The notes under the pieces were generated by a model. The model saw only the letters and a program-made list of their open reading frames with translations, had not been told where the DNA came from and did no database searches. DNA of 64,000 bases from Acidimicrobiales bacterium (GTDB taxonomy: Bacteria > Actinomycetota > Acidimicrobiia > Acidimicrobiales > JADJXE01): contig JADJXE010000001.1 of the NCBI GenBank assembly GCA_016716005.1, forward strand, positions 2,767,011 to 2,831,010, written 5' to 3'. Position numbers and translations under genes: made by a program. Positions 23,390-24,436 of this stretch are shown piece after piece (the first letter of the stretch is position 1; every line of letters begins with the position of its first letter).

Positions 23390-24328
23390 TCAGGCCGCGA
23401 GCCGGGCTCGGCGCAGGCGCCGCATGCGCTCGACCCGGTCCAGCGTGCCGGCCGGGTCGCGCCGGATGTCGACCCCCCGGAGGTGGAGCAGGAGCCAGTC
23501 GACCTCGAGGAGCGCGAGGTCGCGGTCGTCGTCGCGGCCCTGGGAGCGATCGCTGCCGTGGTAGCGGCGTGAGTCGATCTCGATGGCCATCCGGAGGTCC
23601 GGCCAGGCGGTGTCGAGGCGGAACCGGCGCCCATCGGCCACCTCGACCCAGAGCTGGCGGGTCAGCGGGGGCAGTCCGGCGCGGCGGAGGAGTCGGACGA
23701 GGCTGAGCTCGGGCGGGCTCTCGGTGGGCCGGGTGCCGACCGGGCGCCCCTCGAGGAAGGCCCGCAGCAGCCCGGTGCCGGCGACGCCCCTGCCCCCGGT
23801 GCGGTCGAGCACCCGCTGCGCCCGCCGGCGCGTGATCAGGCCGAGGTGCTCGCCGGCCTCGTAGCAGGACTCCAGCAGGTCGAGGTCGCCGGACGCAGCC
23901 ACGTGGAGGAGGGTGAGCGGCGCCGACGTGAGGACCAGCCCGCTGGTCCGTCGCACGACGTCGGTCCGGCTCAGCGGCCCGCACCGGTGGGCCTCGACGC
24001 CCTCGAGTCGCACCGTCCTGGTGCGCGGGATCACCAGGTCGATCGATGCGATCTCGGCGTCGTGCATCCCCCACAGGACGGCGGCCGTGCGGTGCGACGC
24101 GACGGCGCCGGTGCCACCGGCCAGCACGGCGGCGAGGGCCCGCTGGTCGAGGCTCCCCGGCCAGGCCGCGAGCCGGTGCACGCTCCGGTGGACCGGCGCC
24201 AGGACCCCTAGCCGGACACGGTGCTCGATCTGCGCGGCGCTCATGCCGATCGAGTGCAGCTGGGCGGTGGTGAGGAGGCCGTGGTGCCCGGCCCCGAGGC
24301 CGAGCATGCGAGCATCGACCTGCTTCAT
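23390..24328 (-). CDS. AbiEi-antitoxin-like N-terminus plus DUF559/Vsr-like nuclease domain protein
   Basis: N-terminal GLLTTAQL...VHRSVH, SHRTAAVLWG; C-terminal ESPPE...Q...FRLDTAWPDLRMAIEIDSRRYH...RD. Confidence 0.85.
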   Translation of the reverse strand: MKQVDARMLGLGAGHHGLLTTAQLHSIGMSAAQIEHRVRLGVLAPVHRSVHRLAAWPGSLDQRALAAVLAGGTGAVASHRTAAVLWGMHDAEIASIDLVIPRTRTVRLEGVEAHRCGPLSRTDVVRRTSGLVLTSAPLTLLHVAASGDLDLLESCYEAGEHLGLITRRRAQRVLDRTGGRGVAGTGLLRAFLEGRPVGTRPTESPPELSLVRLLRRAGLPPLTRQLWVEVADGRRFRLDTAWPDLRMAIEIDSRRYHGSDRSQGRDDDRDLALLEVDWLLLHLRGVDIRRDPAGTLDRVERMRRLRRARLAA

Positions 24329-24382
24329 CGCGGGGTGAGGCTACGGATCGCCGCCCACGTCGCCACCGTCGTTTTCCCAGCG

Positions 24383-24436
24383 CCGGTTCTGTGTGGCCGA
24401 ACCCGGATCCCATCGGGATTCGTCCACACAGAACGG
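24383..24436. repeat. REP-like palindrome family B, copy 1
   Basis: GTTCTGTGTGG...CCACACAGAAC outer stem; 46/51 identical to 60360-60410. Confidence 0.88.

What the first reader, a model, noticed from the sequence alone, without database searches (positions are those of the whole stretch)
23390..24436. AbiEi/DUF559 nuclease gene headed by a dispersed ~50-nt palindrome: possible non-RAYT REP/enzyme system
A long imperfect hairpin (24383-24436) sits ~55 nt upstream of the DUF559-type gene. A 46/51-identical copy lies 36 kb away (60360-60410) with no nuclease gene. A related TTCTG...AGAAC hairpin is at 15935-15982 and a second family (CTGGTGCG...CGCACCAG) at 6856 and 8128. All are intergenic, of similar length, with long outer stems and an asymmetric inner stem. 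The layout (enzyme next to a hairpin, orphan hairpins scattered) mirrors REP/RAYT systems, but the enzyme is a Vsr-like PD-(D/E)xK nuclease, not an HUH transposase. Hypothesis: these genes bind, cut or spread the palindromes. I am not aware of this being established.
Basis: partly seen in the sequence, partly recalled or inferred. Interest (0 to 1): 0.68.

Follow-up and report, generated by a model that had tools for sequence, protein, structure and literature searches.

The report
AbiEi-nuclease gene with its own palindrome
The 49-bp palindrome in front of this gene is most likely the DNA site that the gene's own protein (an AbiEi-type DNA binder fused to a nuclease) recognises; gene and palindrome form a widespread, undescribed cassette, not a high-copy REP-like repeat family.

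Summary
A 49-bp palindrome (24386-24434) lies 57 nt upstream of an AbiEi+DUF559 gene, a 46/51 copy lies at 60360-60410, and the other hairpins named are real.

The link between gene and palindrome is general. In 80 metagenomic loci with homologues (52 separate chromosomal sites), a palindrome of the same size, position and end motif (CGTTCTnnG...CnnAGAACG) sits just upstream at 25 of 51 sites. A sister copy overlaps or follows the stop codon at 16 of 45.

Residues 1-200 of the protein are a complete AbiEi fold. Published work shows AbiEi binding two 23-bp inverted repeats 3 bp apart in its own promoter. That is 49 bp, the same layout as here. The palindrome is therefore most likely the protein's own binding site, or operator.

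REP-like high copy number is not supported: at most two copies per genome in the scans.

There is more than a plain operator, though. Cassette and solo palindromes are discrete presence/absence units between lineages, one solo is an in-frame insert in mutY, and the nuclease residues are conserved. A selfish, palindrome-directed nuclease cassette is not excluded. No matching description was found in the library searched.

The parts
24386..24434 (.). W1: a 49-bp palindrome made of two 23-bp inverted arms around a 3-nt centre, extendable to 24383-24437. End motif GTTCTGTG...CACAGAAC. Proposed cognate site or operator of the adjacent protein.
   Evidence: CM R1 scores it 40.5 bits. It is conserved 46/49 in the orthologous locus L001, while the neighbouring intergenic DNA has diverged with indels.
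23390..24328 (-). Gene for a 312-aa fusion protein. Residues about 1-200 are a full AbiEi fold (wHTH N-domain plus C-domain). Residues about 200-312 are a DUF559/Vsr-like PD-(D/E)xK nuclease with D239, E250 and H257 conserved. There is no AbiEii toxin partner gene.
   Evidence: Pfam. PADLOC AbiEi E 5e-25 over residues 7-178. AF2 model pLDDT 95. Foldseek: 6Y8Q AbiEi E 2.5e-6, TM 0.64; 3HRL TM 0.78; 3R3P TM 0.62. PDB profile search: 3hrl 2.5e-8. Conserved columns.
24338..24343 (-). A -10-like hexamer, TAGCCT (fits TANNNT), 9 nt upstream of the ATG. It suggests a leaderless or near-leaderless transcript that starts downstream of the palindrome. This is an inference.
   Evidence: Sequence. The block GGCGGCGATCCGTAGCCTCACCC is conserved with L001. 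The main clade has an analogous TGn-TTGGCT-6 nt-GTG layout. The sigma-70 consensus scan found nothing.
60359..60411 (.). W2: an orphan copy of the same palindrome, 46/51 identical to W1, between the convergent stops of a MauE-like gene and an S9 peptidase gene. It is followed by a G-rich tract.
   Evidence: CM R1 scores it 24.7 bits. At the variable positions it shares states with L001's version of W1, so the duplication is probably at least as old as the window/L001 split.
15933..15983 (.). W3: an orphan hairpin with the family's end motif (CTTCTGCG...CGGAGAAC) and size but a different interior. It lies between an HMG-CoA-lyase-like gene and an alpha/beta-hydrolase gene.
   Evidence: CM R1 scores it 30.4 bits, E 1e-4. 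Family membership is weaker than for W1 and W2.

Best explanation
The 49-bp palindrome is the cognate DNA site of the protein encoded next to it.

The protein is a complete AbiEi-type DNA-binding module fused to a Vsr/DUF559-type nuclease. By analogy with characterised AbiEi proteins, one AbiEi module binds each 23-bp arm of the palindrome. The palindrome lies immediately upstream of the gene's promoter, so binding most likely autoregulates transcription.

Gene and palindrome form a discrete single-gene cassette of about 1 kb. Many homologues carry a second, sister palindrome at the stop codon, and a few solo copies such as W2 lie elsewhere.

Shown here:
- the gene-palindrome association
- the geometry
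- the fold
- co-divergence of palindrome and N-terminal half
- cassette presence/absence between lineages

Inferred:
- binding
- repression
- whether duplex or extruded hairpin is the bound form
- what the nuclease does at the site
For: 1. Fold and family. PADLOC AbiEi profiles match residues 7-178 at E 5e-25. The AF2 model (pLDDT 95) has S. agalactiae AbiEi 6Y8Q as top PDB hit over AbiEi's whole length (E 2.5e-6, TMt 0.64).

2. Published behaviour. AbiEi binds two 23-bp inverted repeats 3 bp apart in its own promoter. Rv2827c binds pairs of 23-bp repeats within -1..-131 (PMC7319586). W1 is 23+3+23 bp, and its homologues are 23+(1-7)+23.

3. Generality. Upstream windows of homologue loci hold a palindrome with at least 17/23 arm matches in 44 of 75 loci, or 25 of 51 separate chromosomal sites. 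About 15% would be expected from the background. The position is fixed relative to the start codon.

4. Conserved half-site. C25 G24 T23 T22 C21 T20 n n G17, T11, C4 G3, with a non-symmetric patch at positions 8-10.

5. DNA-level rather than sense-RNA symmetry. G:T and A:C mismatches are equally frequent, 63 against 68.

6. Not the neighbour's terminator. The upstream palindrome is present with divergent upstream genes too, in 6 of 20 cases, the same ratio as in loci without it. There is no U-tract and no Rfam match.

7. Co-divergence. At one orthologous site (after atpGDC), flanks are 83-87% identical and the C-terminal half 73-81%. The N-terminal half is 60-67% and the palindrome only 39-67%, yet each palindrome stays symmetric.

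8. Purifying selection. W1 is 46/49 conserved against L001, next to diverged intergenic DNA.
Against: - No binding or expression data exist, and no RNA runs were found.
- In the window the palindrome ends 57 nt before the ATG, upstream of where a -35 would lie, so simple steric repression is not obvious.
- Positions 12-16 vary freely between lineages yet stay 80-94% complementary (and 89 on a slightly different set). That is more than a dimeric duplex-binder needs and points to selection on hairpin or cruciform pairing, or to arm-to-arm homogenisation.
- A second copy at the 3' end and orphans between convergent genes (W2, L002, L007, L041:5359) are not what a plain autoregulatory operator predicts.
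- The published AbiEi and Rv2827c repeat sequences are not similar in sequence to these.
- About half of the sites show no clear palindrome.
- The palindromes used for the logo and the covariation counts were chosen for symmetry, so those statistics are partly circular.
Confidence: 0.6

Rival explanations
1. Selfish or mobile nuclease cassette, working like REP/RAYT but with a different enzyme. The AbiEi module targets the fused PD-(D/E)xK nuclease to the palindromes that bound its own gene, probably as extruded hairpins or a cruciform. Cutting and repair there move or copy the cassette and seed solo palindromes. This does not exclude the operator role.
For: - A sister palindrome lies at the stop codon at 16 of 45 sites. 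Within a locus the upstream and downstream copies share 37-48 of 51 positions (two weak calls, L062 and L084, lower), against a mean of 20 between loci.
- The cassette with both palindromes is present in L041 where the syntenic window site has only 45 nt. L058 against window 55504-55536 shows the same.
- Solo L041:5359-5413 is an insertion of about 60 nt where the window has 10 nt.
- The L058 solo is a 32-aa in-frame insert in MutY, 360 nt from a cassette with the same outer box.
- Cassettes sit at many unrelated chromosomal sites.
- Catalytic D/E/H residues are conserved.
- The nuclease domain is homologous to the I-Bth0305I homing endonuclease (PMC3239194).
- Dyad symmetry is kept at freely varying positions.
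- A perfect 47-nt tandem duplication abuts W1.
Against: - Copy number is very low.
- Orthologous cassettes are stably inherited at the same site across deep divergence.
- Upstream and downstream copies differ by 10-25%, so no recent event is seen.
- No target-site duplication or precise junction could be defined, because the filled and empty sites compared are only about 75% identical.
- Deletion rather than insertion could explain each filled/empty pair.
- PD-(D/E)xK nucleases alone are not known to transpose DNA.
- The mutY case is a single anecdote.
Confidence: 0.22
2. Structural RNA or terminator-insulator hairpins. The palindromes act in transcripts as U-tract-less terminators or 3'-end stabilisers that insulate the cassette from its neighbours. 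Similar copies arise by duplication, with no protein recognition.
For: - Strong predicted hairpins, z -3.2 to -5.3.
- Downstream and solo copies lie at gene 3' ends, often between convergent genes (10 against 3).
- Sequence drifts while pairing is kept.
- G-rich tracts follow many downstream and solo copies, which gives a C-rich RNA on the other strand.
Against: - There is no U-tract.
- A:C mismatches are as common as G:U.
- Conserved end and centre motifs hold across distant lineages.
- The non-pairing patch sits at fixed positions 8-10.
- Upstream copies are present irrespective of neighbour orientation.
- Such hairpins are almost absent from about 245 kb of other intergenic DNA in the same loci. 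They are therefore not a general terminator type but are tied to this gene.
Confidence: 0.12
3. REP-like high-copy dispersed repeat family, as first proposed: hundreds of copies per genome maintained by the DUF559 enzyme.
For: The window has four to five hairpins of this geometry in 64 kb (W1, W2, W3, F2a, F2b). That is denser than in the flanks of homologue loci.
Against: - At most 2 frame-matching copies per genome across 185,579 species genomes.
- 0 hits for the W1 core in metagenome contigs.
- 1 further contig in run X1.
- 2 solos in about 245 kb.
- F2a/F2b lack the family's end motif.
- The source genome itself could not be scanned.
Confidence: 0.05

Closest known systems
AbiEi antitoxin and its operator (S. 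agalactiae abiE; M. tuberculosis Rv2827c)
   Same: The same protein fold over the whole AbiEi length. The gene's own upstream region carries inverted repeats of 23 bp per arm, and the 3-bp spacer gives the same 49-bp site as PabiE.
   Different: - No AbiEii (DUF1814) toxin gene.
- A DUF559 nuclease is fused instead.
- The repeat sequences are unrelated.
- Many members have a second copy at the 3' end and orphan copies.
- In the window the site lies upstream of the presumed -35 region rather than over it.
REP sequences with RAYT (TnpA_REP) genes
   Same: An enzyme gene flanked by its palindromes, with orphan palindromes elsewhere. Palindromes lie in intergenic regions, often at gene 3' ends.
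   Different: - The enzyme has a PD-(D/E)xK fold plus wHTH, not an HUH Y1 transposase.
- The palindromes are 49-53 bp with a GTTCT head, not 20-40 nt with a GTAG head.
- Copy number is units, not hundreds.
EDxHD / Vsr-like homing endonuclease I-Bth0305I
   Same: A homologous nuclease domain (3R3P), with an N-terminal DNA-binding region giving a long pseudo-palindromic footprint (PMC3239194 abstract; details from memory).
   Different: It is intron-encoded in a phage recA gene. Its target is interrupted by the insertion rather than duplicated on both sides. It has no AbiEi module.
Rickettsia palindromic elements and other MITE-like palindromes
   Same: A short palindromic element found as an in-frame insertion in a protein-coding gene (MutY of L058), and as indels of about 60 nt between genes.
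   Different: This rests on a single case. Copy number is low, and the elements are linked to a specific protein-coding cassette. The comparison with RPEs is from memory and was not tested.
Integron gene cassettes with attC sites
   Same: A compact single-ORF unit tightly bracketed by imperfect palindromes. The downstream one overlaps the stop codon, and there are fixed non-pairing positions.
   Different: The ends read GTTCT...AGAAC, not RYYYAAC...GTTRRRY. There are no arrays, and no integron integrase was seen nearby.

Membership tests
AbiEi (type IV TA antitoxin / COG5340-like) protein family | N-terminal winged-helix DNA-binding domain plus AbiEi C-terminal domain | tested here: met
   PADLOC AbiEi E 5e-25 over residues 7-178 of a 184-position profile. 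Foldseek 6Y8Q E 2.5e-6, 199 aligned columns of 195 residues. Pfam AbiEi_4 scores 24.8 bits, just under the 25-bit cut-off.
AbiE type IV toxin-antitoxin system | Bicistronic operon with an AbiEii (DUF1814 nucleotidyltransferase) toxin gene | tested here: not met
   The neighbours are a luciferase-like oxidoreductase gene and an alpha/beta hydrolase gene. Homologue loci are single-gene cassettes.
AbiEi-type operator | Two ~23-bp inverted repeats with a short spacer in the gene's own upstream region | tested here: met
   W1 is 23+3+23 with 20/23 complementary. It is present at 25 of 51 separate sites of homologues. The layout is as published in PMC7319586.
AbiEi-type operator | Specific binding by the cognate protein and negative autoregulation | not testable with these tools
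   Needs EMSA or footprinting and reporter assays.
DUF559 / Vsr-like PD-(D/E)xK nuclease | Vsr-like fold with conserved acidic and His residues | tested here: met
   3hrl E 2.5e-8 and 3r3p 1.8e-4. TMt 0.78 and 0.62. D239 and H257 invariant, E250 at least 90% conserved.
REP/RAYT system | HUH Y1 (IS200/IS605-like) transposase | tested here: not met
   No such domain was found.
REP/RAYT system | Tens to hundreds of palindrome copies per genome | tested here: not met
   The source genome itself was not available.
REP/RAYT system | Enzyme gene flanked by copies of the palindrome | tested here: inconclusive
   True at 16 of 45 sites of homologues, but not for the window's own gene. The relative orientation of the two copies is ambiguous.
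Intrinsic (rho-independent) terminator | GC-rich hairpin followed by a U-tract | tested here: not met
   0 terminator-like sites in 23200-24700. There is no T-run after W1, W2 or W3 on either strand.
Integron attC | R''/R' core sites RYYYAAC...GTTRRRY and an adjacent IntI | tested here: not met
   The ends are GTTCT...AGAAC, the opposite arrangement. No integrase gene lies beside the window's gene. The window as a whole was not screened for one.
Known RNA families (Rfam 15) | Match to a curated covariance model | tested here: not met
   Nothing on the hairpin at E up to 10. At gathering threshold the window has only a tRNA and Ms_AS-4.

The most novel reading that the evidence does not exclude
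AbiEi-DUF559 genes are a large class of autonomous, palindrome-directed nuclease cassettes. The AbiEi module reads a lineage-specific 49-bp palindrome, and the fused Vsr-like nuclease acts on it, probably as an extruded hairpin or cruciform. This activity bounds, moves or copies the cassette and seeds solo palindromes, including in-frame insertions in genes. The system would work like REP/RAYT or a homing endonuclease but is built from an antitoxin-type DNA binder and a PD-(D/E)xK nuclease.
Probability: 0.2. Interest if true: 0.85.

Novelty: new variant of a known kind. Interest (0 to 1): 0.6.

Why it matters
The AbiEi+DUF559 fusion is very common. A profile search found 15,636 clusters at 50% identity with E <= 1e-30. 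These proteins are annotated only as 'AbiEi antitoxin domain protein' or 'very-short-patch-repair endonuclease', with no known function.

Each gene carrying its own 49-bp palindrome gives a concrete, testable ligand for the protein, and for the nuclease. This extends the AbiEi operator paradigm to proteins that have no toxin partner.

The flanking and orphan copies, the clean filled/empty sites and an in-frame insertion in mutY raise the possibility of a new kind of selfish nuclease cassette in Actinomycetota. If instead it is only an autoregulated nuclease, the palindromes are still useful markers for annotation and for predicting DNA-binding specificity.

Tried and rejected
- **Exact look-ups.** Look-ups of the window's protein failed because it is not on record.
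- **Genome-collection scan.** The scan used a palindromic frame pattern. Any long hairpin needs only half the specified bases to match, so the Saprospiraceae and Heliobacteriaceae hits (L003, L005) are chance hairpins. The 'conserved CGAA/TTCG' was imposed by the pattern.
- **Core searches.** The W1 core in metagenome contigs gave 0 hits. The frame pattern in viral contigs gave 0 hits.
- **Sliding-window MFE.** This was useless at 75% GC, with 390 windows below -30 kcal/mol.
- **The search for related loci.** It was redone with 10 sequences.
- **Read laying.** This gave only fragmentary low-depth contigs, with no filled/empty evidence at the window's own locus. No RNA runs were found.
- **Orientation of the two copies.** The orientation of the upstream copy relative to the downstream copy could not be settled because the palindromes are too symmetric.
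- **Possible tRNA or tmRNA.** A T-arm-like motif at 6729-6784 is not called as a tRNA or tmRNA.
- **Other searches.** There is no plasmid homologue. No paper pairs DUF559 with AbiEi, and the three that pair DUF559 with 'palindrom' are on unrelated topics.
- **attC reading.** Rejected on the end motifs.
- **ECF-type promoter reading.** AGAAC...GTT was considered and dropped because the spacing does not fit.
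Full report
**1. What is in the window**

The minus-strand ORF 23390-24328 (312 aa) is preceded by a 49-bp palindrome, W1, at 24386-24434. Its inner edge is 57 nt from the ATG.
- W1 has 20 of 23 complementary arm positions around a 3-nt centre.
- A pattern built from W1 finds exactly one further site, W2 at 60361-60408, against 0.00 expected.
- The shared stretch is only about 56 nt.
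- W2 lies between the convergent stop codons of a MauE-like gene and an S9 prolyl-oligopeptidase gene.
- The hairpin at 15935-15981 (W3) has the same TTCT...AGAA ends and exactly the same 47-nt span. It lies between an HMG-CoA-lyase-like gene and a hydrolase gene.
- The CTGGTGCG...CGCACCAG pair at 6857-6905 and 8128-8176 is also real, with the same 23+3+23 layout. It flanks a Zn-alcohol-dehydrogenase gene that sits between two TetR-family genes.
- Strict long palindromes are rare here, 6 in 64 kb.
- No Rfam family matches the hairpin. No canonical terminator or sigma-70 promoter is seen.

**2. The protein**

- Pfam gives AbiEi_4 (24.8 bits, just under the 25-bit cut-off) and REase_MTES_1575, a DUF559 relative (27.8 bits against a 38.2-bit cut-off).
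- PADLOC's AbiEi profiles match residues 7-178 almost end to end, E 5e-25.
- An AlphaFold model built on 37 homologues is confident, mean pLDDT 95.3.
- Its best PDB match is the S. agalactiae AbiEi antitoxin 6Y8Q over that protein's whole length (E 2.5e-6, TM 0.64 by target).
- The C-terminal 110 residues match the DUF559 structure 3HRL (TM 0.78) and the catalytic domain of the homing endonuclease I-Bth0305I, 3R3P (TM 0.62). A profile search of PDB sequences agrees.
- D239 and H257 are invariant, and E250 is nearly so, across 37 homologues.
- No AbiEii toxin gene is adjacent.
- The family is very large: 15,636 clusters at 50% identity with E <= 1e-30.

**3. Is the palindrome tied to the gene?**

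The orthologous locus L001 (86% protein identity) keeps the palindrome at the same place with 3 changes in 49. The DNA between it and the upstream gene has diverged with indels. More distant homologues (37% identity) on other contigs also have a long palindrome just upstream, each with its own sequence.

I then fetched 80 metagenomic loci encoding homologues.
- Scoring two 23-nt arms with a 0-8-nt gap, 44 of 75 loci with upstream sequence reach at least 17/23 in the upstream window. About 15% would be expected from the per-position background of the same loci. At 19/23 or better, 27 loci qualify against about 4% expected.
- Many loci are orthologues of one another. One group of 15 sits after the ATP-synthase operon.
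- Counted as separate chromosomal sites, 25 of 51 have the upstream palindrome.
- The position is fixed. In the main clade the palindrome is followed by TGTCnCACCC, an extended -10-like TGnTTGGCT, 6-8 nt, and then the GTG/ATG start. This suggests a leaderless transcript that begins just downstream of the palindrome.
- In the window a TANNNT-type hexamer (TAGCCT, 24338-24343) lies 9 nt before the ATG, inside a block conserved with L001.

**4. Anatomy of the palindrome (54 distinct palindromes)**

Counting outward from the centre:
- Positions 25-17 read C-G-T-T-C/T-T-n-n-G.
- Positions 16-12 vary freely but are 80-94% complementary.
- T11 is conserved.
- Positions 10-8 are only about 60% complementary.
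- Positions 7-3 are 91-94% complementary, with C4 and G3 weakly conserved.
- The central 3-5 nt are free.

G:T and A:C mismatches are equally frequent (63 and 68). There is therefore no sign of G:U tolerance on the sense strand.

Formal pair counts give 88% paired, against 54% in shuffles and 35-43% when partners are slid. Because these sequences were chosen for symmetry, that contrast is partly circular.

The upstream palindrome is present whether the upstream neighbour is co-directional (14) or divergent (6), the same ratio as in loci without it. It is therefore not the neighbour's terminator.

**5. Comparison with what is known**

Beck et al. (PMC7319586) state two things:
- AbiEi binds two 23-bp inverted repeats separated by 3 bp within its own promoter and represses it.
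- M. tuberculosis Rv2827c binds pairs of 23-bp repeats within 131 bp upstream of its start codon.

That is the layout found here: 23+3+23 = 49 bp, directly upstream of the gene for a protein with the AbiEi fold. The published repeat sequences do not resemble these, as expected for proteins about 10% identical.

At the ATP-synthase site, orthologous cassettes show a sharp break in identity at the outer edge of the palindrome:

| Region | Identity between orthologues |
|---|---|
| Flanks | 83-87% |
| C-terminal half of the gene | 73-81% |
| N-terminal (DNA-binding) half | 60-67% |
| Palindrome | 39-67%, each version still symmetric |

Fast, coupled divergence of a site and the adjacent DNA-binding domain is what a specific protein-site pair predicts. 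This is why I rank 'cognate site or operator' first.

**6. What a plain operator does not explain**

(a) A sister copy of the same palindrome overlaps or follows the stop codon.
- It reaches at least 17/23 in 23 of 71 loci, or 16 of 45 sites.
- It shares 37-48 of 51 positions with the upstream copy of the same locus, apart from two weak calls (L062, L084). The mean between loci is 20.
- A covariance model built from the family (R1) finds 13 further downstream copies that were not used to build it.
- Overall the model finds 44 upstream copies, 27 downstream copies and only 2 solos in the metagenomic loci.

(b) The window happens to be syntenic with two of these loci, which gives filled/empty comparisons.
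- L041 carries palindrome-gene-palindrome (about 1.08 kb) where the window has a 45-nt spacer without any palindrome, at 41661-41705.
- L058 carries palindrome plus gene where the window has 33 nt between convergent stops, at 55504-55536.
- L041's solo copy (5359-5413) sits where the window has 10 nt, at 39320-39329.
- L058's solo copy is part of a 32-aa in-frame insertion in MutY relative to the window's MutY.

(c) Symmetry is kept at positions that vary freely.

(d) The nuclease residues are conserved.

(e) A perfect 47-nt tandem duplication (24437-24535) starts at the very edge of W1 and duplicates the last codons and stop of the upstream gene.

These points keep open a second reading, which does not exclude the first. 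In it, the cassette is a selfish, palindrome-directed nuclease unit that works somewhat like REP/RAYT or a homing endonuclease.

**7. What is not supported**

High copy number is not supported.
- The frame pattern found 3 relevant loci in 185,579 species genomes, with at most 2 per genome.
- The W1 core is absent from the metagenome collection.
- Only one other contig in the metagenome that best matches the window carries a copy at least 80% alike.
- Cassettes at orthologous sites are stably inherited, and upstream and downstream copies differ by 10-25%. No recent movement is seen.
- The source genome itself was not in any collection, so its true copy number is unknown. The window's density of such hairpins (4-5 in 64 kb) is higher than in the flanks of the homologue loci.

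**8. Verdict**

Best explanation (about 0.6): the palindrome is the cognate binding site, or autoregulatory operator, of an AbiEi-nuclease fusion, and the two together form a discrete cassette.

Neither of the two targeted literature searches turned up a paper describing this fusion with its palindromes. I rate it a new variant of a known kind. There is a roughly 0.2 chance that it is a genuinely new type of mobile nuclease cassette.

Noticed in passing
window 24437-24535: A perfect 47-nt tandem duplication (2.1 copies, 100% match) starts at the outer edge of palindrome W1. It duplicates the last 8 codons, the stop codon and 23 nt of 3' flank of the luciferase-like oxidoreductase gene. It is absent from the orthologous locus L001.
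   Followed up: partly
window 6857-6905 and 8128-8176: Two 49-bp palindromes share a 41-nt core (39/41 identical) and have different but self-complementary 4-nt extensions. They flank a Zn-alcohol-dehydrogenase gene (7037-8068) that lies between two TetR-family regulator genes. They lack the GTTCT end motif. F2a scores 27 bits with the family model, presumably on geometry alone.
   Followed up: partly
window 6094-6135: An AT-richer 42-bp palindrome, TGTAGTGATCGCTGC...GCAGTGATCACTACA, lies upstream of a TetR-family gene. It is probably that regulator's operator.
   Followed up: no
L058:5672-5725 (within MutY-like ORF 5297-6544, minus strand): A perfect 23/23 palindrome with short flanking repeats forms a 32-aa in-frame insertion in MutY, between the HhH-GPD domain and the Fe-S loop, relative to the window's MutY (54.6-55.5 kb). 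It shares the outer box TTTTGGGCAC with the palindrome of the AbiEi-DUF559 gene 360 nt away, but has a different, compensated interior.
   Followed up: partly
window 60409-60445; L041:2998-3015 and 5414-5427; L024:5971-5990; L058:5726-5765 and other loci: Downstream and solo palindromes are very often followed on one side by a G-rich tract (GGGAGGGAGAGGG, GGGGGGGGCGGGG and similar) before the stop codon of a convergent gene. On the other strand this gives a C-rich RNA ahead of the hairpin. It may be part of the element or a rut-like feature.
   Followed up: no
L012-L023 and others, about 5-30 nt downstream of the upstream palindrome: A conserved DNA motif, TGTC(A/T/G)CACCC, lies between the palindrome and the -10-like hexamer. 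It is not coding, because some loci have in-frame stops there. Its function is unknown.
   Followed up: partly
window 19892-19973: An Rfam match to the actinobacterial sRNA Ms_AS-4 (72 bits, above gathering) overlaps a 73-nt TTCT...AGAA hairpin at 19881-19953.
   Followed up: no
L011:9920-9965: An AT-rich 46-bp palindrome (21/23 arm matches), ATTGTGTGCAAATTCATATCATAT|ATGATATGATTTTGAACACAAT, lies upstream of a more distant homologue (P0029). That homologue sits next to a leucyl-tRNA-synthetase gene and about 4 kb from an integrase/RepSA island.
   Followed up: no
L079:4778-4832 and 4860-4914: Two family-model hits lie in tandem upstream of one homologue. This recalls the two pairs of repeats upstream of M. 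tuberculosis rv2827c.
   Followed up: no
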